Part shown: positions 8,811-62,249 of the stretch, one piece after another
How positions within the stretch are numbered: the first letter of the stretch is position 1
Layout: each line of letters opens with the position of its first letter
Assembly: GCA_039621445.1 (NCBI GenBank)
Contig: CP154954.1
Span: 8,992,634 to 9,056,633 of the forward strand
Direction: 5' to 3'
DNA: 64,000 bases
Source of the DNA: Euglena gracilis
Taxonomy: Eukaryota
Notes under the pieces: generated by a model
What the model was told of the DNA's origin: nothing
Database searches by the model: none
Seen by the model: only the letters and a program-made list of their open reading frames with translations
Translations under genes and position numbers: made by a program

Positions 8811-9425
8811 ATTGTCACACCCTGTATCTTCTTTCTTTATGACAAACCAAGGTAAAAGGAAGGCTGTCCCTTCTTCTTGAATTTCCTTTGCTGCCACCGT
8901 CCAGGTCCCGAGGGGAAGGGCCTGGACCGGCAGTCAACCCCCCAGCCGACATCCGCACCAGAGACGAGGCTGGTAAGAGCAGTGGAGTATGAAGAAGAAG
9001 GATGGCGGCTGGTCCAAAGAAATAGAAGAGGCAGGCAGTCTCCAAAGGAAGGGGAGAGACCCTGCCTGCGGCAGGTGTCGAAGGCGAAGCCGACACCATC
9101 GTCCCCATCAACATCACCGAGTGTGCCGAAGGCGAAGGTGGCATCACCGTCCTCATCAACATGAAAGGCATCGGCAACGAAGAGACCATCGATCTCATCA
9201 ACGCTGACGGCATGGGCAACGAAGACAGCATCGAGATCGAGTCTACCACGATCTACGTCATCGCCATCAACATCACCGACAACGTCATCACCGAAGGCAT
9301 CACCACGTCTCCACAAGACACCACCACAAGAAAAGCAAGCACCGGCGAAGGAGGTGAAGAAAGCACCGGCGAGGAAGGAGAAGACAGAGCCGGTGAAGAA
9401 GGCGGCGAAGAAAGAGAAGGAAAGA

Positions 9426-10025
9426 TGGGCGCTGGATCTGTTCTCCGGAACGGGAAGTGTGAGAAGAGCGCTGGAGAAGATGGGCTTCAAGGTGATCAGG
9501 GTGGACTGGGATGAGAAGTGGAAGCCGGACATCGTGGCCGACGTGAGGAAGTGGAGGTTCTGGGAGCAGTACGCTCCCGGCCACTTCGAGGTCATCGCGG
9601 CGTCCCCGCCCTGTACCGAGTACTCCACAGCCCTCACCACCCGCAAGAGGAGGCTCCGCATGGCGGACGCGGTGGTGAAGGCCACGAGAGAGCTGGTGGA
9701 GTACTTGGCGCCTACACGGTGGTGGATTGAAAACCAGAGGTTCGGCTTGCTGCGGTGGCGGCGAGTCCTGCGCGGAGTACGGTATGTGGATGTGGACTAC
9801 TGCCGCTTCGCTGAGTACGGGTATCGCAAGCCGACCCGCTTCTGGGTCAGTGACGCGATGGCGAAGCAGCTGGACGACGTCATATGTGGTGGAAAGTGCG
9901 ACAGCACGGTGGAAGGACCAGACGGCGTACGACGACATCGGCTGCAGTTGGGAGGCAGTGGCGAGCGCAGATGCACAAGGGAGGAGGCCTACCGCATCCC
10001 GGAGGGGGTGGTGCGGTACCTGTGC
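9426..10025 (+). CDS. C5-cytosine DNA methyltransferase domain in A1 pol
   Basis: Motif I ALDLFSGTGS, motif IV ASPPCTEYS (catalytic Cys), motif VI WWIEN, DYC..YGYRKPTRFW, C-terminal AYRIP; in frame with protease ALIDSGA. Confidence 0.92.
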
Positions 10026-10129
10026 CTCGGGGTGAAGGCACGGGAAGAGGCGGCGGCGGCGGAGGAGGCGAAGAAGGTGCGGAAGGTGGTGGTGCGGCCG
10101 TGGCAGCACCTCCCGAACCGGCCGTTCAC

Positions 10130-12360
10130 GGTCGGCCGGATGCAGCACCGTTGGGGGTGCTACCAGCTGCTGGTGGACGTGGAGGTCGAGGCAGGCGGGA
10201 TGAAGATCCAGGTGAAGGCCTTGATCGATTCGGGGGCGCAGACCTCCCTCGTGAAGAAGGAGCTGTTCCCGGAGTCGGTGTTCCAAAACAAAGGGAACAA
10301 GACCCTTGGTGCTGCGCACGGTGAGCGGAGAGGCACTACCCGGAGGACAACGAGAAGCGGAGCTGAAGCTGTCGTTCGCGGCCCAGACCGACGACGAGGA
10401 GCGGAGACCGAGGACGTGGACCACGAAGGTGGTGGCGTACGACGGTTGCATCAGCACGGATCTGATCCTGGGGTATCCGTGGCTCCGGGAGAACCGGCTG
10501 GATGTCCAGCCTTGGCGCGACACCTTGCAGCTCCACGCGGACCCCAAGTGGATCCTGAGGCGGCGTGGAGACGAAGAGAAGAAGGAGGAAGATGGCAATG
10601 AAGACGAAGACGAGCTGGACGGCTACCTCTCCACGGTGAAGAAGATGCGGCAGCTGACCACGGAGGAGGCAGCAGTCCGAGAGGTGGCGGTGATGGTGAA
10701 GGAGGCCGAAGAAGCGGCGAAGGCGGTGCGAGGGGTGGTGGAGACAGAAGACGACGTCGACCATCCCTTGGCACGGCAGCTGCGGGACGAGATCATCAAC
10801 GAGTTCGAAGTCCGGGTGTTCCGTGAGCGGGTGTGGCCGTGTCCTCCGGCGCGAAGGGTGGGAAGGCGGCGATGATGCTGAAGCCGGGGGCAACTCCGGT
10901 AGTGGGCCGGATCATCAACCTCAAGGGCGAGCGGCTGGAGGCCCTGAGGGAGATGGAGCGGGAGTGCCTGGCGCGACGGCAAGCTGGAGGCGGGGCGGGG
11001 GCCGTGGAGGGCGGCCGCCTTCCCCATCCGCAAGAAGTCGGGCAAGTGGAGGCTGGTGTGCGACTACAGCTTGACCAACAAGATGCTGCAGATGAAACCC
11101 TACCCCCTACCGCTGACGGAGGACATCGTGAGCAAGCAGGCGAAGTGCCAGATCTTCTCGACGGTGGACCTGCGGGACGCCTTCCACCAGGTGGCCATGG
11201 CGGAGGAAAGCCGACCCATCACCAACATCCACCTGCCCGGCGGCCTCTGGCAGTGGACCGTGGTGCCCCAGGGCATCAACGTCGGTCCGCCGCTGCTCCA
11301 GAGGGACATCGCCGCGACCTGCCGCAACGTCTCCGCCCACACCCACCCCTACTTCGACGACATCCTGGTGAGCACGAGGCGGCTCCCGGGGTGGAGCGAC
11401 GAGGAGCTGATCAGGCGGCACGCGGGGGATCTGCTTGAGACCCTGCGGGCGCTGGAGGCGGATCGGTGGGTGGCGGACTAGAAGAAGGCACAGCTGTTGC
11501 GCAAGAGGGCGGAGGTCGTGGGGCACGTGCTGGGGGGGGGGCAATCGCGTCTCCGCGAGCGGCAAGCTGCCGGCGGTGCAGCGGTGGCAACTCCCGGCCA
11601 ATGTGACGAGTTTGTGCACCTTTCTCGGCCTCTGAAATTATTATTCGGGGTATGTACGTATGTACTCGGAGCTGGCCGCCCCCCTGCAGGAGAAGGCGAA
11701 GCTGCAAAGGGATTTGTCCCGGGCGGGCAGCAAGCACCCCTTAGGTGGTCCGCGGCCGAGCTGGAGGCGTTCGAGAAGCTGAAGGCAGCGCTGGTGGCGG
11801 ACCTGGAGCTGTGGCACGTGGGCATGAACAAGCCGTTCGTGTTGCGCACGGACGCCTCCGACTATGCGGTGGGCGCCGTGCTGGAGCAGCTACCGAAGGT
11901 AGAGGGCATCCCCTCGGTGGAGGAGCTCCTGAAGCCCGGGGCGACGGTGGCGGTGGGCTTTATGAGCAGGAAGCTGACGGAGGGGCAGCGGCTGCGGTGG
12001 GGCACCCGCGACAAGGAGACGTACGCGGTGGTGAGCGCGCTGGACAAGTGGGGCGACTACATCACCAGGCAGATGGTCCTGGTCCTGATTGACCACCGGT
12101 CCCTGGACAGCTGGTACAAGGAGCACGTCTCCCGGGGATCGGGACCGCAAGGCCAGCGGGCGAGGTGGCACTCCAAGCTGAACGAGCACATGGTGGAGGT
12201 GGTGTACGTGCCGGGGGAAAAGAACGAGGTGGGGGACGCGCTGTCGCGGTGGGCGTACCCGGCCAGCCAGGAGTACCGAGACTCCTGCTGGCACGGGACG
12301 GCAGCGGACGCCGAGGAGATGGAGCAGCAGATCCGAGAGAAGAAGGCCGCGGAGGGCAGC
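10130..12360 (+). pseudogene. A1 protease, RT and RNase H
   Basis: ALIDSGAQTSL, DLILGYPWL, CDYSLTN..PLPL, VDLRDAFHQV, PYFDDI, FVLRTDASDYAVGAVLEQ, RDKETYAVV; frameshifts near 10290, 10860, 10980, 11540 and stops. Confidence 0.93.
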
Positions 12361-13069
12361 TGCCCGAAGGCAGTACACCCGGTGGATAAGGTGTGCCCCC
12401 TCCAAACCACAAATGCGGCATCCCCATCGCCGCCAGCCAGGAAACCGGCAGCCACGGCGGCATCGGCCGGGACACCGGCATCCGAGGAGCCGCCCGCCGG
12501 CTTTCCGGCAGCCGGAAGTCCGGCAATCCGACCGCCGCCCCCACCGAACCCCACCGCGCCGGATGCGATTGCAGCACCGACCGTGCGAGCGCCCAGTGCG
12601 ACAGCGCTGGCATCGCCCGGGCATCCCGAGCAGCCGCAGCACTCAGCGTTGTCCGCGCAGCCCAAGCAGCAGCAGCAGCCCGCCACACCACGCACCGTGC
12701 GGTTTTCCGTACGGCCAGCAGCGGCACCGGCAGCTGCATCGTCTTGCACGAGCAAGACGATGCTTGCTCGTGCAACCCGCCGAGCAAGCATCGTCCCCGC
12801 CCGAGGCTAGCGCACGCAGCATCCCACCACCGTCCCCAGCAATCGCTGTGACCACCCGAAGCCAGGCGGCCGCCAAGCCGCCCGGTACTGTCGTCCCGAA
12901 GAAGCCAGCCGAGGGAGTGGTGCCGTCGGCCGGCCCACCCAAGGTGGGGGGGGACCCCAGTCCTCCCACCGTGCCGCCTGTGGCAGTCGCCGTGCCTCCT
13001 GTGGCAGCCGCCGTGCCGCCAGCTGCAGCCACCTAGGCCGCAGCACCACAAGACGAGGACCAGGACCTG

Positions 13070-14650
13070 ATGGCGATGGACTGGAGTGAGGCGTATGAGA
13101 AGTGCCCAACGTTCAAAGAGCCGTGGCAGGCCATCAAGCGCGGGCGGCCATGGCCCACCGGCTACCGGAAGGAGGCAGGCATACTGGTGAAGGATTCCGT
13201 CTGGTGTGTGCCAGATGCCCTGACCGAGCGGGCAATCCGAGAGCAGCATCGGGCGTCGTGGCACGTCGGTGGTGAGCGCCTCCTCGACGAGGCCAGCCGC
13301 AACTTCCAGTTTGCGGTGCCCTTCCGAGCACGCGAGCTGGCAGGCAAGATTCTGGCTACGTGCGAAGTCAGCCAGGCGTCAGAGCACCCCCACCAACCCC
13401 TCCGGCTCCGATCACGCCCACGCCATTGCCGCCCCATGTGATGTGTTCGGTGAGTGTGGATCTGTTCCACATGCCGGAGGTGGAGGTGGAGGGCGGCAGG
13501 CTGGTGAATGTGTTCGCAGCATGCATCGATCGGCACTCCGGCTGGGCGATCGCGACCGTGCACCACACCCGCGGGCTAACGGCGGAGGCGGCGGCGAAGG
13601 CGATGTTTGAGCAGTCGACGCAGTTCGGCGTGCCAAGCGTTATCACGTCGGACCGGGGCCCCCACTTCGTGGGGGCCTGGTGGAGCGCAATATGCGCAAG
13701 ACTGGGGGTGCGCCATGCCTTCTCGCAAGCATACCACCACGAAGGCAACGCCCGTGAGGAGGTCCTCGGCGCGCAGATCCAGAAGCGGCTGAGGAAGATG
13801 AAGGCGGCGGATGGCGTGGCGTGGCCGGACGCGCTGCCGCGGGCCCTGCGGACCCTGCACGACAGTGCTGGGCCAAGCGGCCTGAGCCCCTTCCAGGTGC
13901 TCTTCGGCCACGAGCGGTGGTATGGCGTGGTGCCGTACCAGCCGCACACGCGGGCCGAGGACGCGGTGGCCTTCTTCGAGCGCATGCAGGACATCGATCA
14001 TCGTGTCGTGAAGATCTTGAACGCGGAGCACGCCAAGACAGCCGAGACGGTCAACAAGCGGAGAAAGGAGCTGCCGGAGCTGGACATCAACGACAAGGTC
14101 TGGTATCTCCGCCAGCGCACCCGCACCGGCGAGAAGCTGGAGACGTACTGGATCGGGCCGTGCGTGGTGGCAGAGCGCACCAGTGAGATCACGTACGTGC
14201 TCCAGATGGAAGACGACCGGAAGCAGGTGGCCCACCGATCCCAAATCAAGAGCTACCGCCACGACCCAGCGCTCATGGGGCCACGGCTCCGCCTCTTCCA
14301 CTTCCGCCAGTCCAGGCCGGATGAGGGTTCCCGGGTGGACGAGTGGGAGGTGAAGGCGGTGGTCACCCACAGGTGCGATGCCAACGGCGACCTCGAGTTC
14401 CTGGTCAAGTGGCTGGGGTATGAGGAGAAGACGTGGGAGCCGCTGCGGCACTTCTTCCACCGGTACGCCTCCCTCATCGTGTCGCACTTCGTCGAACACG
14501 ACATAAAGGAGGACATCATGAAGTACCTCTCGAGGTTCCCGGAGGAAGCCCACATCGCCATCTGCCACGCCGTGGAGATCGAGATGGAGAAGGATAAGGA
14601 GTTTGGGCAGTCCTGGGAGGAGCCACCAGAGGAGTGGATGTGGCAGGACA
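13070..14650 (+). pseudogene. A1 integrase + chromodomain
   Basis: H..WH..CEVSQ (degenerate HHCC), SVDLF, ITSDRGPHF, GNAREE, WEVKAVVTHR..EFLVKWLGYEEKTWEP. Confidence 0.93.
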
Positions 14651-15487
14651 CCGACGACGGCGATGTACGTCGAGAAGGTGATGATTCTGGAGACGATGAT
14701 GAAGGTGATGGAGGAGACGAAGGAGATCGAGACCAAGAAGACGGAGGAGACGCTGGCCCGGCGGGTCCCCAACAAGCGGCCCACCCCAGGTACCCGGTCA
14801 GGGTCCACCGGCAGCCCGCGAGCTGCGAGCGCCCCGCCTCCGTGCGATCCGCGTCTGCAAGGGATGCGCTCTCCCGCGCTTGCCTTGCCCCAGCCCCACC
14901 GTCCACCACCCCATCACTCCCCATGTCCCAGGCGTACCCACCCCGCATTTCAGGCGTGCCTCAGAGACCCGGTCCCCGAGTCTCCCCTGCCCCCACGGGT
15001 AGAGGTCGCCGCCCCCGCGTGTCGACCCGCAGGGACGCCCCAGCTCGGGATCCCCCCTCCCACCAGGGGGCCCCGTTCCCGAGCACTCCCATTACCCGTC
15101 CCTGCGGCGAGGGGGCACCACCACCGGAGGCGTGCCCCTGCATGGCCACGGTGCGACCCGGCCCTTCCTTCCCAACAGGGAGGCCACCCCTGCCCCCTAC
15201 CCACACCCCATGGGGAAATGGAAAAGGCCTGCCGTCAAACTGGGATTTTCTCCATGGTGGTCGTTTTCCAGTTCATCTTTCTGTTCCTTCCCATCGCCTT
15301 TGACGTTCAGGACAGGCGGCTGGCAGCGCGCGTGAAGGAGCTGAGCAGATGATCATGCTGTGCTGTCGTCGTGAGGACATGCTGTGACGTCGGCGGCAGC
15401 TGGCTCACCCTCTGCTGACCTGATGGATACTGCTGCTTCTCACCCACCAACCCAACCACAAGTGGGCGGCCACCAACCCAAGGACAA

Positions 15488-16126
15488 GTGGGCGGCGGCG
15501 GCCTGAGCGCATGCGCACACAAAGTAGCGGAACCCTCCGCTACTACCTGACCACCCCCTTTCTGCATTTGCCTTCCGCAGGCTCCCTTGTTTCCATGGAT
15601 TCAATCTGATTTGTGCATTGGAATTCAAGTTTTCAAGTTCAATTGTTCAATTCAATCAAATACAAAGATTTCAAAGAAACCAAAGGAAACTGCCAAAGGA
15701 GAAATTACCTTCAAGGAGATCAAAGAAAACCTCAAGGAATTGGCCTACCAGGAGCGCCCCAAGGCAATTTCAAAGGTACTTGCTGGATTTGGCTGGGCTA
15801 AGTGGCTATAAGGGTGGGAAGCACCCCCTGAAAACCCCTAGCACCCAGGCTTTTCCGCCCCCCCTCTGTCCCCCCTCAATTTCCCCCCCTGCGAGGGCCC
15901 ACCTAAGCGGCTCCGCAGACCCCCAGAGGCATCGCAGGAGGCACCCCCCTCCACTCCGCCGCCGGGAATACTAAAAAATGGATCCCAACCCATTCCAAGC
16001 ACCCACGGAGCTTCCCAGGGCCTCCGTGGGGGCTGAGCCCACCCGCGCACCCCCCCTCGCCGGATCCGTGACCCGGGACCCACCCTGCCGGAACCCCAGC
16101 GAGACCGGGACCCCCCCTGGGAAACT
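15488..16126 (+). repeat. 5' LTR remnant of A2 (matches 29721-30360)
   Basis: Near-identical ~640-nt direct repeat ending GGGAAACT and abutting the PBS. Confidence 0.85.
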
Positions 16127-19100
16127 GGTAGCAGAGGATTACGACCCTACCCCACACAACAACCCATTCCTCGCGGCCCACTCTGAGGTGAACCTTCAGA
16201 TCACCGGCCGAGGCCCAGCACTCGGCGACCCCACCCCAGCGATGCCCGCAATCCCCTACGGGGGCCCCCCATCACATCTCCGTGGTAGCCCCCACGGGGA
16301 TGCTCAATGCACAGCCCTAGCCCTGCTGTCCCCAAGTACAAATGATTTTGATCTCGATAGCCCTCGGGATCGAACCCCCACCCCACGGAAAGGAAAGTCA
16401 ACCGGAAATCCCCTTTTCCCCCCGTTCCCATCGCTCGATGAAGCCCCATCAGTGCTGCCTCCACCCTTCTCTCCCACCGACTCCGACCCAAATCATCCCT
16501 CCATCTTCTCCATCCGTCCCCCACCCTCCTCCTCATACACCCCACATCCCCCATCCTTCAGCCCTCATCCCCCATCCTACTCCTCCCCGACATCCGACGT
16601 CCCAGACCCAACCGACGGACCGCAGCCCCCCCAAGGGAGCCGAGACATGGGGCTGCGGACCCCGTTCTCCTCTGGGGCCACTCCCCGGCCCCAGAAGGTC
16701 CCGAGACTCTCCCCAGAGGAAGGGGGAGCAGAGGAGACAGAGGAGCAGGAGCAGTGGGAGGAACAACGGTGGGAACCTTGGGGGTCTGAAGGAGGATGGT
16801 GGCCTACCGAGGGTGAATACAAGCAGGACGAGGTGTTCAACGACATCAAGGAGATGGCGGCACAACAACAACAAGACATCGAGGTAGTCAAACGACAAAT
16901 CACCGCGTGCGACACCGCAGTCAATCTCGTCCGCGAGCAAGCAACGCGTGCGTATGACGTTTCGATGCGATGCGCGGCAGAGACCACAACGCTGCACGAA
17001 GCCGCGAGTGCTGCGCAAACCGCGATCACACAGCACGAGGTTCGCTTCGCGATGGTGGAACGAGATGTCCAAGGGTTGAAGGAGCAGATCAAGACCGAGG
17101 TGGCATCATCATCATCCTCCAAGGGTGCAGCCATCGACACCGCGACAATACACGCAATCAGCAAACACGACGCGCGAATCACCGTCGTTGAAAGCGAGGT
17201 CCAAATGGTGAAGGAGCAGATCAAGATGGAAACAGTGACGCGAAACAGCGACATCCGGTCCCTAGTGGAAATGATGCGGCGCGAACACGAGCAGCAAGCA
17301 GCAAAAGGATCACCAAAACCACAACAACCGATCCAGAACCCGGAGATGGAGGTGGCAATGAACAGAATGACAGTGCGGATCCAAGAAATCGAACAATCGA
17401 AAGACCGACTGAAACGGGCAATGGTGGAGGAAGTGACGGCGATCAAGAAGGAGGTGGAGGCAATGAAACAGGCACAACAGACTCAGGTGGCGGTGATGGC
17501 AAAGGAGATCCAGGAGATGAAGCAAAAACAACAGACAACACAACTCCAACAACCGACCACATCCGACACTCTCATCCAGGATCTGATCTTCAAGGTGCAG
17601 GCCCTCGAGCAGAACAGCAAGCAGTTCAAGCGCGAGACGACGGAGTACGTCCGGAAGCTCGAGATCCAGGTGCACGACTTCCACCACCTTGGGGCCAGGG
17701 TACAAGCCCTGGAGACCTCCATGGCCCGAGCCAAAGATGAGAAGGACAGAGACCTTCTCCGGCTGAGCAAGAAGGTCGAGGTGGCGGACGAAGCACTGGC
17801 AAGGGCCATGGAGCGGGTGGAGAACAAGATGCACGAGGAGATCAAACGACTTCAACTCCCACAACAACTCCAATCAACGGAAGAGGTGGAGGACGGCATC
17901 CAACAGTTGCGGGAGAGAGTGCTCCATGGGGAGGGAGCGTTCTCCAAGGCCATCAAGGAGACAAAGACACAGCTCAGGGAAATACAGAGGGACATCCAGC
18001 TAATCCGGCAACAATCACGCCCCAATATGAGCAGCAGTGAACAGATGGAGCGAGAAGTGCAAGATCTGGCGAGACAAGTCGCACGGCTACAGCTCAGCAC
18101 AACAACGCCCGTCCAGGAACCACACATCCCCCGTGAAGAAGTCCGTCAACGTGCAGAGGTCCACACATTCCCGTCCCAACCGTACCCAGAAATACAAGCA
18201 CGACAACAATCTTCGGTTGCGGTGCGACCGGAGCTCAGGTTGGCAAGAAAGAGCACGCGATCAATGGTGCAAAGTGAAGCAGTGACATCAATCCCAGTAC
18301 AAGCAGTGATGCCAATGACGCAAGTGACACAGCCACCCAGGAGCACAACCGGAACGGCGGTGCGGGGGGTGGAAGTGACCATCGCCCCAGTGCAAGCACA
18401 CACCGTCAGTCCACAACTCCAACTCCTACCCCCACAACTCCTGGAGTCCATCAGCGGCAGACATCCCGGAAGGTTCAGCGGGATTGCAGAGGACTGGCCA
18501 ATGTGGAGAAGAAAGTGGATTCCGTTTCTACGAGAAACGGAAGGGCTGATGCCAGCAATGACCGATGCACAGCGATTGGCGTTGCTGCGAAGTGCACTCG
18601 ACGAGGCCGGGGCTCTCCTGGTGGACCAGGAGCTGGAAGCCAATCCGGACCTCGGGTACGAAGAGTACTGGGCGCGCCTCGACCTGGAGTTCGGGGCGGA
18701 AGACAAGGAGGTCCTCCGCCGCAAGCTCCACCGGCTGAAGATGGCGCATGCGGGCAAGCCAACAGAGAAGTCGTGGCGTGAGCTCTACGCACAGATGATG
18801 ACCCTGGGTGGGCAACTTGGCGATGTCAGTGATGCAGAACTGAGTCGCCTGTTGATGAATGCGATCCCAAGGGATCCGTGGCGAAGGAAGCTGGCGATGG
18901 AGGAGGACAAAAGGACAGAGAGGGGCACCTTGGTGCTCGATGGGCTGCCAATCGATGTGGCCACAGAGGAGGTGGAGAACATGGTGCTGGCGGAGACCGG
19001 GCTGAGACCACTTGCCGTGCGACGGTTCGGCAAGCGAGTGAAGGTGACGCCGCAAGGGGAAGAGCATCGGCATGCCATCAAAATGCTCTATGACCGGCAG

Positions 19101-19769: not shown

Positions 19770-19805
19770 AGGGGCCGCCCAGGCCCCAGGGAAGGAGGCC
19801 TGGGC
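19767..19805 (+). promoter_or_regulatory. Putative gag-pol UGA readthrough signal (stop + 7-nt spacer + hairpin)
   Basis: TGA then GCCCAGGCC(19777-85)/GGCCTGGGC(19797-805); downstream frame is the gag frame and is conserved with A1. Confidence 0.65.
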
Positions 19806-20269: not shown

Positions 20270-21500
20270 GCCACGCGACATCCCGACAACAAGCGACACG
20301 AAACCCGGCAGCCACCCCACAAGCATCATCCGCCACAAGAACCGTTATCTCCACCCCAACTTCCCCACCATCAACAGCTCCCACCAGAACGCTCCTCTAA
20401 CCCGCTGCAGCCACCCCACGAGCATCATCAGCCACAAGAACCGTCATCTCCACCCCAGCATCTCCACCATCGACATCCCCCACCAGAACGGACATGTAAC
20501 CCGCAGCAGCCACCCCACGAGCGTCATCATCCACAAGAACCGTCATCCCCACCCCAACATCCCCTCCAACGACATCTCCCACCAGAACGGACATCCGAAC
20601 CCCGACCCCGACTGCAGCCGCCGCCACTAGAACCGACACCATCATCCAAGCTGCATCCTCCCCAACGACCACTCCCACCAGAACCTTCATCTTCACCGCA
20701 ACAACTACCTCGACAGCAGCTACCCCACAAACCCGCATCATCATCAGAGCGACATCTACTCCAACGTCAACATCCACCAGAACCTTCATCTTCTCCACAG
20801 CATCCACCATCGCCGCTGCCGCCACGAGAACCGACTCCATCATCTAAGCCACATCCACACCAACCACAACTCCCACGAGAACCTTCATCCACATCACGAC
20901 ATCCGTCATCGCAGCCGCTGCCACGAGAACTGTCTTCATCTTTGCAGCGACATCCACCCCAACATTATCGTCCACCAGAACCTTCATCTTCTTCGCGACA
21001 CCCACCTTCGCGGCTGCCACCACGAGAACCGTCTCCGTCATCTCAGCGACACCCACACCAACTTCATCGCCCACAGGAACCGTTATCTCCTCCGCAACAT
21101 CCACAATCGCTACAACCGCCACGAGAACCGATTTCGTCATCTCAACGGCATCCACATCAACCACAACTCCCACCAGGACCGTCATCTGCATCACCACAAC
21201 AGCTGCCTCTGGAATCGTCATCAAAGCGACATCCTCATCAACGATATCACCCACGGGAACCGTCATCTACTTCGCGACATCCACTGCCACTACAGCCGCC
21301 ACTCGAACCGCCATCATCATCACAAGGAAACACCCCGCTACCACTCCCACAAGAACCTTCATCTTCGTCTCAGCATCCACCTCAACAACAACCTCCACTG
21401 GAACCGACTTCTACACCGCATCCCCACCAACAACACCAACCACCAAGCGATTCCCAGCATCAACCACAACCGCCTCAAGAAGGATCAAGACAACATCTAC
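20270..21500 (+). repeat. Degenerate ~60-nt coding tandem repeats (P/Q/S/H-rich linker)
   Basis: Recurring ccac(a/g)agaacc(g/t)tcatc units. Confidence 0.75.
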
Positions 21501-21631
21501 AACAAGAAACACCGCATCCGCATCCAACATCCAGCAGCATCGCCCAAGCCACATCCACATCCGTGCCTCCAGACTCAGTGACGCCAGAAGCAAAAGAAGA
21601 GAAGCACCAGCAGAGCCGCGGACGCGCGCTC

Positions 21632-28896: not shown

Positions 28897-28928
<32 letters not shown>

Positions 28929-54833: not shown

Positions 54834-54846
54834 CACGGGCCGCAAA

Positions 54847-56505: not shown

Positions 56506-59458
56506 GAGGGCGATGGCCACGTTCTGATAAATCTCTGCCTCCTTGATTTCTCGTTCGGCGCCCTGTTGCCAGGACGAGGCGCGTTTGGCCACTCGGCCTA
56601 GCGTCTTGGCTGTTTCGGGGCCCATGCCACCCCATGTCCCCAGGGCGAACGGCGTGAAGCCCCACCCTGCTTGCTGGCAGGGGATGGTGTACTTCTGCTC
56701 CTTGGCCTCCTCCCTTCTCTTTAGGAAGGACCTCCAGCGCTCGCGGGTGGCATTCTTTTTTGTGGTCTGCCATCCGTGGCAGACGGTGACGTCCAGTGCC
56801 GTTGGCTTTCCCTCAGACCAGCAGCCAAGTAGGAGGTTCGCCGGGCGTACGTGACTGTCGCGGGCCGTCGGCAGGGAAACTTCCTTCTGTACCCGCTGTT
56901 CGCTGTTGGACAAGGTTTGAAATAGCGCGTCCTGTACAGCGTTGTGGCGGGTTGCGAAATTTTTCCTCTGGCAGCAGAGGAGGTGGTCGCCCTGCCTGTC
57001 CAGGGGTTGGCCGCAGCCTGTGCACGGCTGGCTGATATGCGTCAGCACCGGGAGGCCCAACCACCATTTTAGACCCAGGGTATAGTCTTCGCTGGAGAAG
57101 GTGGTATGAGAGTTGTTCGAGGGGCAGGCCGCCATCCAGTCGTGTCCGAAACCCGTGGCATGTTCCAGCAGGCGGTTCTGGTCCCGGGGCCGAGCCTGGT
57201 CCACTAGGTCGTCCATTGCCTTCTTGCCCAGCTCGTGATTCCACCACTTCTGCTTCCGCGGCTCCTGGTCCGCGGACGCGATTCGCTGTGGGTTGTTAAG
57301 GAAGGTGGTCACGGTGGCATGGTTGGCACCCAGCCTGCCCCTGAGGTCGTCCAAAACGGGTGTGACCAAGGTAAGCTGCGGGTTGACTGCGTAGTCGGGC
57401 ATTCCCACCCACCGGGCCCCGTCTGAGTAGAAGTCTGCGAGGCAGGAAATCCTTGCCGCGGGTTGGATGTATGACGGTATGCGAAGGCCGCAGCCGCCAC
57501 TTGACAGGGGCAGCGAGGCCTGTGTCCGCTGTTGCGAGTTTAGCGCCGTGCCCAGTATGTCCTCGAAGGCGTTCATGATTGCCTCCGAGCAGCTGCTTAC
57601 TTGGTCTTGGCTGCCATAGGAGTTGGACGCACGCAGAAGATGGTTCACCTTGCAGCCGTCCAGGCAGCTCCGTAGCAGATGATGCGCTACCTGGGCGTCG
57701 GTCAGGGAAGTTATTGTGGATGTGGCCTTCTCAATTTTGGCGGCAGCGTCTTCCCACGCTGTCTTGGTGGTGTCTGAAGATGCCGGATGGTCAACTGGGA
57801 TGCCGAGGACAGTAATGCCCTCCACTGGTGTCCAAGGGACAAGCTGTATTTTGTCGCGGCTGGGTGTGCTTTTCGCTCCCGGGCCACCACAGGACGCATT
57901 TTCGCTGGTTCAGGCCGAGACCTACACGGTGGGACTCTTGCAGCAGGAAACGTAGGCAGTGCTCAATCCTGTCCAGGGTCCCGACCAAAAGGTCATCGTC
58001 CAGGTACCAGCTGTTCCACAGTAGCTGGCCGTCCCTGGTAATCTGCTCCGGTAGGGGCTGTAGTGCCAGGGCGAACCCAATGGGGCCCAGAGGACAGCCT
58101 TGGTGTGTCTCCCGTTGTGAGAGGATGGACCGGCCGCCGCAGAAGAGGGGCACGGGTGTGCTGTAGGCAAACCTCAGGAAATTGAACAGGCTGGGGGTCC
58201 GTGTCTCCGCTTCCGTGAGGATTGCCCCACGGTCCACGGTGTTGAACGCGTTGGAGTAGTCCACCTGGAGAGATACCCAGGGCGATGTGTCCCCCAGCCG
58301 ATTGACGAGGTGTTGCATGCCCAGGGCGACGGCTTCAGCCGCATTTCGTACCCCTACCGCAACCTGTGTGGGGGCGAGGGTTGCGACCTCCGACCGTGCA
58401 TTTGGTGTCTGGAGCAGCGCCTTCCCCACCAGGCGTCGAATGGTCTCCCCCACCGCTACGGGTCGCACCCCGTTGTCCTTCTTGCCGAGGGGTGTCAGGT
58501 TTGCGCAGCACCAGGCCGCAGCGTGGTGCGGTGGCAGTTGACCGTGAACCCAGACGTGGGTCAGTCCTGCAAGGGCTGTGATCAGCTTCGCCCCCCGGCC
58601 CGGTCTGCGCAGGCAGTCTGGGAGGTGGCTGGGCCGCAGGCCGGATGGTCCTGGTGCGGATCCCCGTGGGAAACGGCGGATGGCCTCCTTCAATCTGTCC
58701 TCCCATTCAGGGCTGTAGTTCTCTGGGAAAGGCCGCACGTGCCGTGGGAGGCGGTTGGTGTCGACATGTCTGCCAGCCGGATGCAGCTTCTCCAGGGCGG
58801 CCCAGACTTCCGGGTCGTCTGGCTGGTGAGCGCCCTGGGAGAGCAGTACCTGGAACACCTTTGCAGACGCCCCTTCGCCCGTGAGGGTGCGAACACGTCT
58901 CGTCATAGCCTCACTGAGGGCAGACGACTGTGTTCTAGAGCGTTTCTGTGCCCTGGTCTCCACGATGGAGTGTCGTGTCTGTGCGTCCTTCATTGCCTCT
59001 GACAGGAGGCTGGCGTAATCCTCCTCGCGGAAAAGTCTGGTGCGTCTCATCAGGATGGACTCCAGCTCAGCAGCCGGGGGTGGTGTGCTTGTTGAAGCCG
59101 GTCGTAGGACGAGCTTTGGGAAGGAGAGTACACCGAACAAGGCTGCGTCTGAGGGTGCGTGGGCATAGGTGCTGATGGCATCTGCCATGGTGTCAAAGAC
59201 AGGTTGTTGGCAGGCCGAAGGTAGTTGAAGGAGGGTCGGGATTCTCTGCTGTAGGATGTGGGTGATGTTGCAAGGGGGGGTGCCCACGACGAGGGTGTGC
59301 GTGGACTGCCCCCGGAGATTGGACTCCTGCCCGGCGCTATCGATGACCACTGCGGCGTCGCGTTCCGGGTGTGCAAGGTCTAGCAACAGGAGGTCCTGGT
59401 CCCGGACAGCTGCCACCTCCGGTGCAGCGCGGGGTGACGCAGGTGCTGGGCGCTTCGC
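56506..59458 (-). pseudogene. RT + CCHC + restriction-like endonuclease
   Basis: SAPGPSGLRP, RPVAVGETIRRLVGK, VDYSNAFNTVDR, QGCPLGP, WYLDD, LPLSSGGCG, CTGC..DHLLCC, RHNAV, RPANLL..ALDVTV..K..KY; frameshift ~57850. Confidence 0.92.
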
Positions 59459-59512
59459 TAGTCCGGGATTCTCCTCTATGTCCCCAAAGGTGAGGAGGCT
59501 GCCCCGTCCGTC
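59459..59512 (-). other. 2A-like StopGo peptide 2 (DGRGSLLTFGDIEENPG-L)
   Basis: 14/18 identical to T2A (EGRGSLLTCGDVEENPGP); final codon CTA is one change from Pro CCA. Confidence 0.85.
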
Positions 59513-59899
59513 ACGTCTGCCCTGGTAGGGGGCTGTGGGGCGCATCCCACTTGTTATCTGAAAGGCGGGCGGGCCCGATGCGGCGCGTGGGAGGGGGCCG
59601 ATCAGCCGGATGAGGGTGTGGCAGTCCCAAGGCCAGTGACTTTGGCCACAGTGCGGGCACTGTTCTGGTGGCGGCAAGCGAATGTCCCAGAGATACCCCT
59701 TTTGCAACAGGAAGAGGCATGAGGCGAATGGAATGAGTCGGAAGGATCCTTTGGCGCAGTCGAGGGCGACCCATGCCTCGGGGGGCGGCAGATCCGTGGC
59801 CCTGATGTGCGGGATTTTGGTGGGGCGTGACCACTGATACGGTGGCGTCATCCGACACGTCGGTCGGGCGGATGTGCGGGACAGGGGCTTCGTGTGTAT

Positions 59900-60290
59900 C
59901 CGCATGGCCCATGTGGACCACGGTGGCGGTTCCAAAAGCAGATTCCCCTGGGCACGATACAATGGGGTTCCGGTAGGTAACTGAAAGAGGTTTCCGCAAT
60001 CAGCAGGAGGTGGTGCAGTTCTGGCCGCGTGGATGGACACAGGAGAAGGACATGCCCTCCTTCTGTCTTGAGCTTGTTTAGAATCTGGGGCAGCAAGTGC
60101 CACGTTCATCCATACCGGGTTTCTCCGATACCAGTCCTGCAGAAGCGCATTTGTGCTCTTATCCCAGAAGTGAGGGTAATGAGTGTTATGTGCAGCCGCG
60201 AAGGCGTCTATGTCGGGCTCCAGAACTGGGCTCAGCCTCTAGCCTCTGGACAACTCTTCGTTGCCACGCGGCGTCCAGCATGTAGTCCCC
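59900..60290 (-). pseudogene. Dam/DIRS-MT-like amino-methyltransferase domain (frameshifted)
   Basis: GDYMLD..W..PDIDAFAAAHN..FWDKSTNALLQDW..VWMN[PP]WHLLPQILNKLKTEGGHVLLLCP..LFQLPTGTPLY; AAC-G-TGG restores NPPW if 5 C are reinserted. Confidence 0.8.
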
Positions 60291-60302
60291 GTCAGCTGAG
60301 GC

Positions 60303-60345
60303 CGGCCCCAGATTCTCCTCCACACAGTCCCCACCAGTTGCCGTC
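60303..60345 (-). other. 2A-like StopGo peptide 1 (GDCVEENLGP)
   Basis: GAC TGT GTG GAG GAG AAT CTG GGG CCG; CTG is one C>T from CCG (NPGP); sits 4 codons before the MTase. Confidence 0.6.
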
Positions 60346-62180
60346 CCCCGTCCAAGCGACTCAATTTCATCTGCCTCGTGCATAAATTGTGTCGTGCACA
60401 CGAAATAATGTTGATCCAGCGTTTTGGGTGTGCTGGGCAGAAGGCGATGGCAGAGTCCACAGCGCACCTTGAAGTGCGTGTTCCACCAGTCTTTTTGGAA
60501 GAGGAAACATTGTTCCCGCTTGCACCATACCGTGAAACGGGAGAGTTCCTGCCTTCACATCCTGCTTTGGAATAGGGCCGGTTTGGGGAGCTCCGCTCTT
60601 TCGCGCAATCTCTTGGTTTGTCCCTCCGGGGGGGGGGTGCCGCTCGGGTGCACGCACGGGCGGGATACTCTTCCCCGCTCTCCGAGACCGTCTGCTTCCA
60701 GTAAGAGGGTGAGAGAGACTGTCCACCAAAACCAATGGGAATGCTAATATGGAGGGGGTCGCCCCATTTCCTGGGATAATATCTCCACAGGGGGGGGAGG
60801 GTTGGCGACCTGTTGGCGGCGATCCTCCTTTTCATCCTTGTTGTGGTTGGCTGGTGGTCCTCTTCCGGGGGGGGGGGGGGGCGGTGTGTACTGCATGCCC
60901 ACTTCCCGGAGGTCCGTCACTGTGATGCTTTGAGGTGGTGTTTTGGGCCGTGGGTGTCCCCACCTCGGGTGGGCTGCGGGGGCGGCCTGCTGGGTTGGGG
61001 TCTCCCTGGTGCCCCCCTGTGGGGGGTCTCTGTGGGAAATGTTTTGGGTTGGGCCCCCCCCAGGGATAATGGTCCCCGGTTCCGGTGCTGGCAAGGGGTG
61101 TGGGGGTTGGAAGGGCTTTGGGGCCCATTTTGGACAACTTTAAGTCCAAGCTCCTCCCCATGTGTTCCCACTTGTGTTTTTTTGTTGGTGAGTCTTTCCT
61201 TTAAAATGTCTCCCACGGGTCTGACCCATGGTGTCGACCAACTTTTTTGTCTTAATTTCCAAAAATTCCTTTCCTTGTCCCCCCTGGGGGGGCTCCCCTC
61301 TCTGGAGGGGGGGGCTCGTGGAAACCCACTGTCCAATAAGCTGACTTCCTATTTTCATCCTCCAGGGTGTTGTAGATGGGGGTTGGAATTTGTAAGATGG
61401 AACTTTTTTGAGGCTGCTGGGGCTCATTTGGGGGATTGATTTGGGTGCTTTCTGGTGGGGTGTTGTTTGATTTGGGGGCAAGGCAAACAGATACCATTCT
61501 GGAGAGGATATGGGCCAGGCTTGTTCCATTTAGTCCCTGATCTTCAGTTACTTCTGCAGCAAAACCTTCAGGGTCTGCGGGGCCTGCAGCAGTTGTTGCT
61601 CCTCTTGTTGATTCTGGTTGCTGTGGTTCTGGTTGCTTTGAAAAATGCTGTTCCAGATTTGCTGAGTGGGGCAAGATGGGTAATCCATTGGTAGGGGGGG
61701 ACATGCTTGGGGCCCTTGTGGGCTTCTGCTTGGGCTGATCATTGTTGGTCTTGGTTCGGGGGCCTGGGCCCATTGGTGCCCTGGGGCCCATTGATGCTGG
61801 GGCCCTGGGGCCCCTGGTGCTGTGTACGGGGCGTTTGGTCGCCGTCGTTGGTGGGGTGGCACATACTTTTCACCCCACCTCTGCTTCAGCCACTCTTCGT
61901 GACTGTCTTGCCAACTTCGGGCTCTCTTCTCAGCTGGCCGGGGTCTGGGAGGCGGTGTCGGGTCAGACTGCAGTCTGGCACAGACTGCGGCGGTCAGGGC
62001 GGGGAGCAATTCGTCTAACAACTCCTTCTGCACGTCGGGGACTTCGGGACTGCTGGCAGTGGGCTTGTTCTCGTCACAATGCATTGCAATGGGGTTGTTG
62101 TCGTCACAGGCTTGAGAAGCAGGTGTCGGTGGACCAAAAGGGGAGACCTCCCCCTTTCCAGCCATGTATATGCGGAAACG

Positions 62181-62208
62181 CGAAAAAAATAGACGCGAAT
62201 CAGAAAGT
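62181..62208 (-). other. Degenerate spliced-leader relic just upstream of ATG 62165
   Basis: Minus strand ACTTTCTGATTCGCGTCTATTTTTTTCG vs Euglena SL ACTTTCTGAGTGTCTATTTTTTTTCG. Confidence 0.7.
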
Positions 62209-62249
62209 AGATTAGGAATCACGCGAAAGTTAGCACATGACATAAAGAG

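What the first reader, a model, noticed from the sequence alone, without database searches (positions are those of the whole stretch)
8890..62208. Three retroelement families in 64 kb each encode a DNA methyltransferase (5mC and 6mA/4mC types)
Seen: Gypsy-A with C5-DNMT, Gypsy-B with amino-MTase, CRE-like with amino-MTase. Inference: convergent capture suggests host-wide pressure, such as a defence or expression system that distinguishes modified from unmodified DNA, which elements meet by methylating themselves.
Basis: inference. Interest (0 to 1): 0.85.

Follow-up and report, generated by a model that had tools for sequence, protein, structure and literature searches.

The report
Retrotransposons carrying DNA methyltransferase domains
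Four decayed jumping genes of three architectures in this 64 kb stretch each carry a DNA methyltransferase domain (two cytosine-type, two adenine-type), a theme already published, though two of the domain arrangements appear undescribed.

Summary
Two sister Ty3/gypsy chromoviruses (A, 8.9-15.5 kb; B, 15.5-30.4 kb) carry the same minimal (~206 aa) cytosine-C5 methyltransferase just upstream of protease. An AlphaFold model (pLDDT 93) matches only C5 DNA methyltransferases. Its closest free-standing relatives are ~200 aa enzymes on uncultivated viral contigs.

A third gypsy (C, ~36.5-43 kb) carries a DIRS-type Dam-like adenine methyltransferase domain just before RT. A non-LTR element with a restriction-like endonuclease (56.4-62.3 kb, minus strand) carries the same kind of domain upstream of a 2A-like peptide.

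All four copies are damaged. The catalytic NPP motif reads HPPL in C and is deleted, with frameshifts, in the non-LTR element. RNA reads are almost absent.

"Convergent capture" is overstated. A and B share one capture, and the Dam module probably moved between elements. Self-methylation is already proposed in print (de Mendoza 2018; a 2026 preprint) and is untested here.

What may be new:
- a virus-type C5 enzyme before protease in chromoviruses;
- database relatives that combine it with Dam in several domain orders;
- Dam in a non-LTR element, which rests on one broken copy.

The host taxon is unknown.

The parts
8856..15457 (+). Gypsy-A, a chromovirus lacking a recognisable gag and LTRs. 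The order is pre-MTase segment, C5 MTase, PR, RT, RNase H, IN, chromodomain.
   Evidence: Pfam hits. 8856-9161 resembles B's 19770-20264. There is a frame break inside PR and there are in-frame stops.
9420..10037 (+). Gypsy-A minimal cytosine-C5 DNA methyltransferase domain (206 aa). Motifs read FSGTGS, SPPC, ENQ, KPTR.
   Evidence: Local HMM E 4e-89. Pfam PF00145 scores only 17.3 bits against a cut-off of 22. AF2 pLDDT 93, and all listed Foldseek hits are C5 DNMTs. ENQ is unique among 182 rows.
10161..10518 (+). Gypsy-A aspartic protease, split over two frames.
   Evidence: Pfam RVP 20.8 bits. The local PR HMM hits two ORFs colinearly.
11026..12186 (+). Gypsy-A RT (11026-11382) and RNase H (11746-12186).
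   Evidence: Pfam RVT_1 E 2.6e-21. RT_RNaseH E 1e-19.
13504..14451 (+). Gypsy-A integrase core (13504-13737) and chromodomain (14344-14451).
   Evidence: Pfam rve 39.8 bits and Chromo 28.0 bits, cut-off 25.1.
15488..16126 (+). Gypsy-B 5' LTR.
   Evidence: 98.75% identical over 640 nt to 29721-30360. A TGG-starting primer-binding-like site follows it.
15975..19769 (+). Gypsy-B gag-like ORF (coiled-coil rich, no Pfam family).
20308..21187 (+). 99-nt (33-aa) Pro/Gln/His-rich tandem repeats in the ORF upstream of B's methyltransferase.
21623..22243 (+). Gypsy-B minimal cytosine-C5 DNA methyltransferase domain (207 aa). Motifs read LSGARS, SPPC, ENP, KPTR.
   Evidence: Local HMM E 1e-89. 63% identical to A and 78% to database protein P0001. 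Pfam is silent.
22373..22722 (+). Gypsy-B aspartic protease, split over two overlapping ORFs.
   Evidence: The local PR HMM hits two ORFs colinearly.
23410..24567 (+). Gypsy-B RT (23410-23913) and RNase H (24130-24567).
   Evidence: Pfam RVT_1 E 4.4e-23 and RT_RNaseH E 1.5e-23.
25769..26812 (+). Gypsy-B integrase core (25769-26053) and chromodomain-like stretch (26660-26812).
   Evidence: Pfam rve 37.9 bits. Chromo 22.5 bits is below the cut-off of 25.1.
29721..30360 (+). Gypsy-B 3' LTR, preceded by a purine-rich tract.
30357..32423 (+). Second copy of Gypsy-A's integrase-chromodomain segment (equal to 13395-15457, 99.76% identical), directly abutting B's 3' LTR.
   Evidence: No target-site duplication was seen and the arrangement is unexplained.
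39440..39715 (+). Gypsy-C Dam-like (DIRS-type) adenine methyltransferase domain. The catalytic motif reads HPPL instead of NPP[FY].
   Evidence: Local Dam HMM E 8.7e-15. phmmer with P0206 and P0141 gives E 1e-8 and 2e-7. Translation. Pfam is silent. The AF2 model is weak (pLDDT 65), and its best Foldseek hits are N6-adenine methyltransferases at E about 0.01.
40153..42246 (+). Gypsy-C RT (40153-40473), RNase H (41084-41293) and integrase (41974-42246), in several frames.
   Evidence: Pfam hits.
59888..60226 (-). Dam-like domain of the RLE non-LTR element, in three colinear pieces over two frames (60226-60101, 60099-60025, 59983-59888). The NPP motif is missing at the first frame break.
   Evidence: Pfam Dam 29.0 bits on the first piece. 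The local Dam HMM matches positions 9-50, 53-77 and 94-124 in order; the last piece is weak at 1.4 bits. DNA read.
59462..59485 (-). 2A-like peptide GDIEENPG followed by L instead of P, in the same ORF as the Dam piece and RT.
   Evidence: 2 such motifs in the window against 0 in 200 shuffles.
59618..59659 (-). Cys/His knuckle-like motif between Dam and 2A.
   Evidence: Read from the translation. Not tested further.
57887..58483 (-). Reverse transcriptase of the non-LTR element.
   Evidence: Pfam RVT_1 E 6.5e-10. No RNase H, integrase or APE family was found.
56689..57024 (-). C-terminal Cys-His motif plus restriction-like endonuclease region. It reads RPA where relative P0121 has PD.
   Evidence: BLASTP to the C-terminus of P0121, E 2e-6. 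P0121 was found.
63565..63591 (+). Canonical 2A peptide (GDIESNPGP) of a second, head-to-head element with no Dam upstream. The element runs off the window.

Best explanation
The window is a nest of decayed retrotransposons in which four elements carry DNA methyltransferase modules of two unrelated kinds.

(1) Two sister chromoviruses (A, B) inherited one capture of a minimal, virus-like cytosine-C5 methyltransferase. It is placed in Pol directly before protease.

(2) A third gypsy (C) carries the retrotransposon-type Dam-like adenine methyltransferase directly before RT.

(3) A non-LTR element with a restriction-like endonuclease carries the same kind of Dam-like domain in its single long ORF, upstream of a 2A-like skipping peptide.

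Inferred mechanism, not shown here: in intact family members the methyltransferase is made with Pol, or is released by 2A or protease. It travels with the RT complex and methylates the new cDNA or the integration site. Fresh copies then carry the marks the host genome expects: 5mC for the C5 enzyme, 6mA for Dam. The chromodomain steers integration into repeat-rich chromatin, which would explain the nesting.

The copies in this window are dead or nearly so. How sure I am of each part:
- anatomy and enzyme class: about 0.9;
- Dam as a true part of the non-LTR element: about 0.65;
- the self-methylation mechanism: about 0.35.
For: C5 class:
- Cys of motif IV, E-N of motif VI and K-x-T-R are kept.
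- AF2 pLDDT is 93 and pTM 0.90.
- Every Foldseek PDB hit listed is a C5 DNA methyltransferase (DIM2, MET1, DNMT3A/B, DNMT1, M.HaeIII, a prophage enzyme), at E about 1e-7 and TMq 0.5-0.6.
- 240 word-index relatives were found, among them ~200 aa proteins named site-specific DNA-cytosine methylase.

Virus-like relatives:
- 100 of 101 IMG/VR candidate stretches encode relatives of the standalone protein P0041.
- The Atlas nearest clusters are labelled viral.
- P0041 is 30% identical to Bacillus phage C5 methylases.

One capture:
- The domain sits at the same position in A and B, which are 58% identical over 296 aa of MTase-PR.
- A, B, P0001 and P0124 form a clade (98). The TE-borne rows form a 67-row clade (99) (FastTree).

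Constraint in the family:
- The catalytic Cys is kept in 33 of 33 TE-linked rows.
- E-[NT]-P is kept in 33 of 33, and K-x-T-R in 30 of 33.

Full chromovirus Pol with this domain exists in public data: P0144, 2513 aa, reads MTase-RT-RNase H-IN-Chromo.

Dam:
-.
- The non-LTR Dam piece, the 2A-like peptide and RT share one 815-aa ORF.
- A 2A peptide needs coding sequence upstream of it (established knowledge).

Abundance: 12,612 contigs of DNA run X8 lie on 20 kb of A and B at 95% identity or more.
Against: - No activity or methylation data exist for these elements.
- All four copies are damaged. A reads ENQ, unique among 182 rows. B reads LSGARS in the cofactor motif. C reads HPPL. In the non-LTR element NPP is deleted, there are two frame breaks in Dam, 2A ends in L, and the endonuclease reads RPA.
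- RNA is almost absent: 22 reads of 12.9 million records in X21 (18 of them only partly fitting) and 68 of 8.3 million in X24.
- Pfam's C5 model is below cut-off for A and silent for B. Pfam is silent for C's Dam.
- The preprint reports that eukaryotic TE Dam domains expressed in E. coli gave no 6mA.
- The non-LTR plus Dam architecture rests on one broken copy. The homologue search found 1 relative without Dam and a metagenome scan found none.
- The synonymous excess among copy variants in the MTase domains (5 of 8) is not significant against linker regions (3 of 13, Fisher p 0.16).
Confidence: 0.6

Rival explanations
1. The Dam-like domain next to the non-LTR RT is a chance juxtaposition. Either the element inserted beside a remnant of a DIRS or gypsy element, or the assembly joined them, so no non-LTR family encodes Dam.
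For: - Only one copy is known, and it is broken.
- No relative with this architecture was found: 1 hit without Dam and 0 in the metagenome scan.
- The neighbouring 2A-bearing element has no Dam.
- The preprint flags LINE-like RTs beside Dam in Euglena as possible nested insertions or assembly artefacts.
- The window shows other odd joins, such as the 2 kb duplication around Gypsy-B.
Against: - Dam, the Cys/His motif, 2A and RT lie on one strand, colinear.
- The first and last Dam pieces share the frame of the 815-aa ORF that runs through 2A into RT without a stop.
- A 2A peptide is meaningless without an upstream coding part.
- No LTR, tyrosine recombinase or integrase remnant was seen between 59.5 and 62.3 kb.
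Confidence: 0.3
2. The methyltransferase domains are inert passengers or have a non-catalytic role such as DNA or chromatin binding. Their presence in several families reflects modular shuffling among elements, not selection for self-methylation.
For: - The window copies have altered cofactor or catalytic motifs.
- TE Dam domains gave no 6mA in E. coli in the preprint.
- Another note of this scan describes a catalytically dead C5 fold in a diatom gypsy (e1-2850094, unchecked).
- Database relatives carry Dam, C5 and protease in several orders, as expected from free shuffling.
Against: - Across database relatives the catalytic Cys is kept in 33 of 33 TE-linked rows and E-[NT]-P in 33 of 33.
- Intact Dam relatives keep NPP[FY].
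- De Mendoza 2018 reports that retrotransposon DNMTs can methylate CG de novo (abstract). Those are a different DNMT lineage.
Confidence: 0.2
3. The clustering of MTase-bearing elements in one window says nothing about host pressure. These families are simply abundant, and chromodomain-guided integration piles them into the same repeat-rich region.
For: - Nested and truncated copies of at least five element families fill the window.
- A carries a chromodomain and B a chromodomain-like stretch.
- Very many near-identical contigs appear in DNA run X8.
- MTase-less elements sit in the same window: the second 2A element, and the LTR pair at 49.9-54.8 kb.
Against: This reading is compatible with the best explanation rather than opposed to it. 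It does not explain why catalytic residues are conserved in the families.
Confidence: 0.5

Closest known systems
EpiLTRs and DAM-LTRs (Fernandez-Moreno et al., bioRxiv 2026, 10.64898/2026.05.21.726589). I read the abstract, all of Results, the Discussion and one Methods section.
   Same: - They are Ty3/gypsy and chromovirus elements carrying the retrotransposon Dam domain.
- Some also carry a cytosine DNMT and a chromodomain.
- The modules are shuffled between elements.
- LTR expression is low or undetectable in Euglena, whose genome has CG 5mC as its default state.
   Different: - In this window no single element has both enzymes. A and B have C5 plus a chromodomain (chromodomain-like in B). 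C has Dam only.
- The preprint describes its DNMT as sister to DNMT4, appended to the 3' end of pol in Cymbomonas. Here a ~206 aa virus-like enzyme sits before protease.
- Whether the Euglena EpiLTR DNMT is this same enzyme could not be checked, because no sequences were available and supplements are closed.
- The preprint does not report a non-LTR element with Dam. It mentions only LINE-like RTs in Ty3-like structures as possible artefacts.
SymbioLINE-Dnmt, SymbioDIRS-Dnmt3 and KnitGypsy-Dnmt3 (de Mendoza et al. 2018, PMC5890265). I read the abstract, section 6 and found passages.
   Same: - Retrotransposons encode a C5 DNMT in their coding regions.
- Key catalytic residues are conserved.
- The authors propose self-methylation of retrotranscribed DNA.
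- KnitGypsy-Dnmt3 places the enzyme inside a gypsy Pol.
   Different: - Those elements carry Dnmt3-type enzymes or an orphan Symbiodinium lineage, in LINE ORF1, DIRS Pol or a charophyte gypsy.
- Here the enzyme is a minimal type whose closest free-standing relatives lie on viral contigs.
- The carriers have an rve integrase and a chromodomain, not a tyrosine recombinase or an APE endonuclease.
Short (~200 aa) viral and phage C5 DNA methyltransferases: IMG/VR contigs, and Bacillus phage 'C-5 cytosine-specific DNA methylase I'.
   Same: - Same length and the same motif set: FSGTGS, SPPC, ENP, KxTR, a Cys-Cys-His cluster and YRIP.
- 36-41% identical to the Gypsy-A domain over 96% of its length.
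   Different: - They are free-standing genes on viral contigs.
- They fall mostly outside the TE-borne clade. 9 of 112 'standalone' rows fall inside it and may be fragments of elements.
DIRS-element Dam-like methyltransferase domain (Pfam PF05869 relatives).
   Same: - An N-terminal D-[VIA]-F-[AS] motif.
- A hydrophobic-W-[ML]-N-P-P-[FY] catalytic stretch in intact relatives.
- Then a helix and a P-x-W stretch.
- P0259 shows the classical DIRS order RT ... Dam.
   Different: Here the carriers are a gypsy and an RLE non-LTR element, and both copies have lost the catalytic motif.
RLE-bearing non-LTR retrotransposons (CRE, NeSL, R2, Utopia and similar) and 2A-containing non-LTR elements. Features are recalled; the papers were seen only as search listings.
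   Same: - A single long ORF with RT followed by a Cys-His motif and a restriction-like endonuclease.
- No LTRs.
- A 2A-like peptide separates an N-terminal product from RT.
   Different: - An adenine methyltransferase domain in the N-terminal product is not described in the papers I could search.
- Clade membership, CRE or otherwise, was not tested by RT phylogeny.

Membership tests
Cytosine-C5 DNA methyltransferase (PF00145 superfamily) | Catalytic Pro-Cys (motif IV) and Glu-Asn-x (motif VI). Motif names are recalled. | tested here: met
   SPPC in A and B. ENQ in A, ENP in B.
Cytosine-C5 DNA methyltransferase (PF00145 superfamily) | Cofactor motif I, F-x-G-x-G-like | tested here: inconclusive
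   A reads FSGTGS, the family consensus. B reads LSGARS, seen in 0 of 180 database rows, although the last Gly position varies in the family.
Cytosine-C5 DNA methyltransferase (PF00145 superfamily) | Pfam gathering score | tested here: not met
   A scores 17.3 bits against 22; B has no hit. Longer relatives reach 25-29 bits.
Cytosine-C5 DNA methyltransferase (PF00145 superfamily) | Three-dimensional fold | tested here: met
   AF2 pLDDT 93. All listed Foldseek PDB hits are C5 DNA methyltransferases, at E about 1e-7.
Cytosine-C5 DNA methyltransferase (PF00145 superfamily) | Methyl transfer to cytosine C5 in DNA | not testable with these tools
   Needs an enzyme assay or a methylome.
Retrotransposon Dam-like adenine methyltransferase (PF05869 relatives, DIRS type) | Sequence match to the family | tested here: met
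   Non-LTR piece: Pfam 29.0 bits against 28.1, and 23.2 bits on the whole ORF. Gypsy-C: local HMM E 8.7e-15, but no Pfam hit.
Retrotransposon Dam-like adenine methyltransferase (PF05869 relatives, DIRS type) | Catalytic Asn-Pro-Pro-[Phe/Tyr] | tested here: not met
   Gypsy-C reads HPPL. In the non-LTR copy the tripeptide is missing at a frame break. Intact relatives P0141, P0173, P0206 and P0225 keep NPP[YF].
Retrotransposon Dam-like adenine methyltransferase (PF05869 relatives, DIRS type) | Fold of an N6-adenine methyltransferase | tested here: inconclusive
   The Gypsy-C model has pLDDT 65. Its best Foldseek hits are N6-adenosine or adenine methyltransferases (PCIF1, METTL16, KsgA, E. coli Dam), but none reaches E 0.001.
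EpiLTR (chromodomain + Dam + DNMT in one LTR element) | Both methyltransferases and a chromodomain in one element | tested here: not met
   The C5 HMM hits only A and B. The Dam HMM hits only C and the non-LTR element. There is no C5 relic upstream of C's Dam. 11 of 256 database relatives do carry both enzymes.
SymbioLINE-Dnmt / SymbioDIRS-Dnmt3 | DNMT in LINE ORF1 upstream of an APE-RT ORF, or in a DIRS Pol with a tyrosine recombinase | tested here: not met
   A and B have protease, RT, RNase H, rve integrase and a chromodomain (chromodomain-like in B). No Exo_endo_phos or phage integrase family was found.
Chromovirus (Ty3/gypsy with chromodomain) | PR-RT-RNase H-IN order with a C-terminal chromodomain | tested here: met
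   A: Chromo 28.0 bits, above 25.1. B: 22.5 bits, below cut-off, but 54% identical to A over IN-chromo.
Chromovirus (Ty3/gypsy with chromodomain) | Flanking LTRs | tested here: inconclusive
   B has 640-nt LTRs, 98.75% identical, but no target-site duplication. No LTRs were found for A or C.
RLE-type non-LTR retrotransposon (CRE-like in the broad sense) | RT followed by a Cys-His motif and a PD-(D/E)xK-type endonuclease, without LTR, RNase H or integrase. Motifs are recalled. | tested here: inconclusive
   RVT_1 is present. The C-terminal region aligns with that of P0121 (E 2e-6) and reads RPA where P0121 has PD. No Pfam family covers it.
RLE-type non-LTR retrotransposon (CRE-like in the broad sense) | Placement in the CRE clade by RT phylogeny, and insertion into spliced-leader genes | not tested
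   No reference RT set is on hand, and the element's ends and target were not defined.
2A ribosome-skipping peptide | D-[VI]-E-x-N-P-G-P (recalled consensus) | tested here: inconclusive
   The non-LTR element with Dam reads GDIEENPG then L. The neighbouring element reads GDIESNPGP. That is 2 motifs against 0 in 200 shuffles.

The most novel reading that the evidence does not exclude
In this host, methyltransferase modules have spread across LTR and non-LTR retrotransposon architectures. A minimal virus-derived C5 enzyme was captured once and then recombined with the old DIRS-type Dam in several domain orders. Dam was also taken up by a restriction-like-endonuclease non-LTR element, which releases it through a 2A peptide. 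That would be the first non-LTR retrotransposon with an adenine methyltransferase. It would mean that writing both 5mC and 6mA on new copies is under selection in this genome.
Probability: 0.3. Interest if true: 0.65.

Novelty: new variant of a known kind. Interest (0 to 1): 0.5.

Why it matters
Retrotransposons that carry their own DNA-modifying enzymes show that mobile elements act on the host's epigenetic system rather than only being its target.

If the minimal C5 enzyme is active, it would be among the smallest eukaryote-borne DNA cytosine methyltransferases. It would also be a clean case of a virus-type enzyme recruited into a chromovirus Pol.

A real non-LTR element with Dam would extend the published DIRS and LTR picture to non-LTR elements as well. 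It would offer a simple system, with Dam released by 2A, for testing what TE-encoded 6mA does.

For this window alone the practical yield is modest. The copies are dead, the general phenomenon is published, and the host is not identified.

Tried and rejected
- Whole genome: none is held, so no census was possible.
- Classical amino-methyltransferase motifs ([DNS]PP[YFWH]) in ORFs of 150 aa or more gave only chance-looking hits. None lay in a methyltransferase context, because both Dam copies have lost the motif.
- PDB by sequence. The A domain gave only 3lx6_A at E 1.5. The non-LTR RT gave nothing at E 0.01.
- Homologue searches for the non-LTR ORF gave 1 protein, without Dam. A metagenome scan gave 44 pattern matches, none a relative. 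A word-index search with the Dam part of P0206 gave 2 proteins, one being the query itself.
- Host taxon.
  - I first assumed a dinoflagellate. The spliced-leader motif (recalled) has 0 matches with up to 3 mismatches, which says little for a TE-only window.
  - Atlas taxa for the RT were uninformative.
  - Run names are coded.
  - One dual-enzyme relative (P0173) is filed under a carnivorous plant's genome. I do not read that as its true host.
  - A euglenid host would fit the preprint's description, but this is untested.
- Earlier notes of this scan: none for this genome or sequence.
- Neighbours of a viral standalone C5 gene (L004): only an N6_N4 methylase was recognisable, so phage and giant virus could not be told apart.
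- A global alignment of dual-enzyme proteins (A2) is scrambled by their different domain orders. The fold made from it is weak.
- Selection from copy variants: too few sites.
- I did not read the broken Dam through as one sequence. I scored the frame pieces separately instead.

Full report
**What the window is.** The 64 kb are almost wholly retroelement sequence of a eukaryote whose genome is not held. GC content ranges from 43% to 72%. Self-comparison and Pfam scans of the long ORFs resolve the following on the plus strand:
- a 5'-truncated chromovirus, Gypsy-A (about 8856-15457);
- a chromovirus-like element, Gypsy-B (15488-30360), with 640-nt LTRs that are 98.75% identical;
- a repeat of A's integrase-chromodomain part (30357-32423, 99.76% identical to 13395-15457);
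- GC-rich tandem arrays;
- fragments and one longer copy of a third gypsy family, Gypsy-C (RT, RNase H and IN at 40.1-42.3 kb, with related fragments at 1.9-5.3 and 34.8-36.5 kb);
- an LTR pair with nothing recognisable inside (49876-54834).

On the minus strand lies a non-LTR element (about 56449-62318). Head-to-head with it is the start of another element.

**The cytosine-type domain.**
- Gypsy-A's ORF 9165-10601 and Gypsy-B's ORF 20093-22690 each hold a ~206 aa domain followed by the aspartic protease.
- The two domains are 63% identical. MTase plus protease together are 58% identical over 296 aa.
- Pfam barely sees the domain: PF00145 scores 17.3 bits against a cut-off of 22 for A and gives no hit for B. 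PDB sequence search gives only E 1.5.
- The word-index search found 240 relatives at E 0.001 or better among 928 candidates. The best was 64% identical, and many were ~200 aa proteins named site-specific DNA-cytosine methylase.
- The alignment shows invariant Pro-Cys, Glu-Asn, an Arg in K-x-T-R, and a Cys-Cys-His cluster.
- With that alignment AlphaFold gives pLDDT 93 and pTM 0.90. Every Foldseek hit listed in the PDB is a C5 DNA methyltransferase (DIM2, MET1, DNMT3A/B, DNMT1, M.HaeIII, a prophage enzyme), at E about 1e-7 and TMq 0.5-0.6.
- An HMM of the family hits exactly 2 of the window's 947 six-frame ORFs.

So both A and B carry a C5-type enzyme. Neither carries an amino-methyltransferase.

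**Where that enzyme comes from.**
- A profile search of 1.84 billion cluster representatives found 6015 at E 0.001 or better and 789 at E 1e-30 or better.
- Of the 259 proteins I held, 256 carry the domain. 179 of them are 260 aa or shorter and 21 are longer than 400 aa.
- The short ones resemble viral genes:
  - 100 of 101 candidate stretches in IMG/VR encode relatives of the standalone protein P0041, and one contig bears a giant-virus-MAG label;
  - Bacillus phage C5 methylases are 30% identical to P0041;
  - the nearest Atlas clusters are labelled viral.
- The long ones are retroelement polyproteins. Of 10 scanned, 4 have RVT_1 and 2 have integrase plus chromodomain. P0144 (2513 aa) is a whole chromovirus Pol with the domain before RT.
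- In a FastTree of 182 near-complete domains, A and B group with P0001 and P0124 (98% SH-like support). A 67-row clade (99%) holds 2 window rows, 22 extended or TE-linked rows, 10 dual-enzyme rows, 24 intermediate rows and 9 short rows. Most short viral-like rows lie outside it.
- This is a quick tree, unrooted and without bootstraps. It fits one capture followed by spread among elements.
- Catalytic residues are kept in TE-linked rows: Cys in 33 of 33, E-[NT]-P in 33 of 33, K-x-T-R in 30 of 33. A's ENQ and B's LSGARS occur in none of the 180 database rows.

**The adenine-type domain.**
- Pfam reports Dam (PF05869) at the start of the non-LTR ORF 57791-60238. It scores 23.2 bits on the whole ORF and 29.0 bits, above the cut-off of 28.1, on the 50-aa piece alone.
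- The DNA shows the frame changing exactly where intact relatives read W-[ML]-N-P-P-[FY]. The tripeptide is missing.
- Some long C5 relatives also carry Dam. Using them as queries uncovered a second Dam-like domain in the window, in Gypsy-C's ORF 38933-39862, just before its RT. It reads L-W-L-H-P-P-L at the catalytic site.
- A small HMM of four database Dam domains hits window-wide only that ORF (E 8.7e-15) and the two non-LTR pieces (E 6.6e-4 and 6.7e-3).
- In the non-LTR element the HMM positions 9-50, 53-77 and 94-124 follow each other along the DNA in frames 2, 0 and 2. The last piece is weak at 1.4 bits.
- The first and last pieces share the frame of the 815-aa ORF. That ORF continues through a Cys/His motif and a 2A-like peptide (GDIEENPG, then L) into RT.
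- The RT ORF is followed, in another frame, by a Cys-His motif and a restriction-like-endonuclease region that aligns with the only relative found, P0121.
- A fold of Gypsy-C's domain is weak (pLDDT 65). Its best PDB matches are N6-adenosine or adenine methyltransferases, but none reaches E 0.001.

**State of the copies.**
- A has a frame break inside protease and in-frame stops. B's Pol is in three overlapping ORFs, with the first break also inside protease. C is in many frames. The non-LTR element has at least three frame breaks and altered 2A and endonuclease motifs.
- Contigs of other public runs differ in length by one base close to the protease breaks of A and B (table 4). Those two breaks may therefore be private to this copy or be assembly errors.
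- Twenty listed runs from 15 studies hold the 10 kb probe or a part of it. Organisms are coded.
- On 20 kb of A and B, DNA run X8 laid 12,612 contigs at 95% identity or more, and X1 laid 75.
- RNA runs laid 22 reads of 12.9 million records (18 only partly fitting) and 68 of 8.3 million.
- Summed depth is not a copy number. The many variant contigs do indicate large families, and transcription is close to nil in these two runs.
- Among the 40 best-supported variants of 269, the methyltransferase domains show 5 synonymous of 8 and linker regions 3 of 13. This is not significant (p 0.16).
- CpG observed/expected is 0.5-1.0 across the elements, with some TpG and CpA excess. That is compatible with cytosine methylation in the host but does not prove it.

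**Comparison with print.**
- De Mendoza et al. 2018 (abstract, section 6 and passages read) describe DNMTs in a LINE and in DIRS elements of Symbiodinium and in a charophyte gypsy. All are Dnmt3-type or an orphan lineage. They propose self-methylation of retrotranscribed DNA.
- The 2026 preprint (abstract, Results, Discussion and one Methods section read) reports the following:
  - the retrotransposon Dam family goes back to one old acquisition;
  - it moved at least four times from DIRS into gypsy elements;
  - some Cymbomonas and Euglena elements ('EpiLTRs') combine Dam, a DNMT and a chromodomain;
  - in Euglena, LINE-like RTs beside Dam are mentioned as possible nested insertions or artefacts.
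- I found no description of three things:
  - this minimal virus-like C5 enzyme before protease in chromoviruses;
  - proteins combining it with Dam and protease in several orders (11 of 256; orders such as Dam-C5-PR, Dam-PR-C5, C5-PR-Dam and PR-C5-Dam);
  - Dam in an RLE non-LTR element.
- That negative rests on four full-text searches of an incomplete library, and on not seeing either paper's supplements. The supplements may list these very families.

**Verdict.**
Acquisition is recurrent at the level of element architectures, not independent capture from the host. The proposed selective pressure remains untested.
- The most likely mechanism is methylation of the element's own new DNA by an enzyme made with Pol or released by 2A. 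This is inferred from published work on other lineages and from the conservation of catalytic residues in relatives, not from anything measured here.
- The weakest new claim, a non-LTR element with Dam, rests on a single broken copy and needs further copies.

Noticed in passing
13395-15457 and 30357-32423: A 2,063-nt piece of Gypsy-A (integrase to 3' end) stands on both sides of Gypsy-B at 99.76% identity. B's 3' LTR abuts A's coordinate ~13393, and no target-site duplication is seen. It could be recombination, template switching or a mis-assembly.
   Followed up: partly
20308-21187: 99-nt tandem repeats encode about nine 33-aa Pro/Gln/His-rich units in the same ORF as, and upstream of, Gypsy-B's methyltransferase. 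Gypsy-A has no such array.
   Followed up: no
32751-34029 (also 27.0-29.7 kb): Very GC-rich (72%) 49-nt and 267-nt tandem arrays lie after the integrase-chromodomain ORF. They are open in several frames on both strands, giving Pro/Gly-rich or Lys/Gly-rich translations. Gypsy-B has an analogous low-complexity tail.
   Followed up: no
62398-63999 (+): A second element lies head-to-head with the non-LTR element. It has 'GLQRPPQFL'-type repeats, then a canonical 2A peptide (GDIESNPGP at 63565-63591). No Dam-like domain lies upstream. It runs off the window.
   Followed up: partly
49876-50458 and 54253-54834: A 583-nt direct repeat pair (97.4% identical) encloses about 3.8 kb in which the two ORFs I scanned have no Pfam family. 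CpG observed/expected is lowest here (0.48). It may be a non-autonomous LTR element.
   Followed up: no
5920-7257 and 45552-46598: An unknown ORF family (33% identical over 145 aa, no Pfam hit) lies downstream of the Gypsy-C-type integrase in both places. It may be an extra 3' ORF of that family.
   Followed up: no
Database proteins P0141, P0173, P0206, P0225, P0135 and six more: Public metagenome and genome proteins combine the short C5 methyltransferase, the Dam-like domain and an aspartic protease in several orders. One (P0173) is filed under the genome of a carnivorous plant, perhaps from an organism living with it.
   Followed up: partly
16127-16140: Directly after Gypsy-B's 5' LTR comes a TGG-starting stretch. 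From memory, it is complementary to the 3' end of initiator tRNA-Met, as expected of a primer-binding site. The gag-like ORF nominally starts inside the LTR and reads through it.
   Followed up: no
L004:6709-7677 (IMG/VR contig): The viral contig with a standalone short C5 methylase also encodes an N6_N4 DNA methylase (Pfam E 1e-23) about 2 kb away.
   Followed up: no
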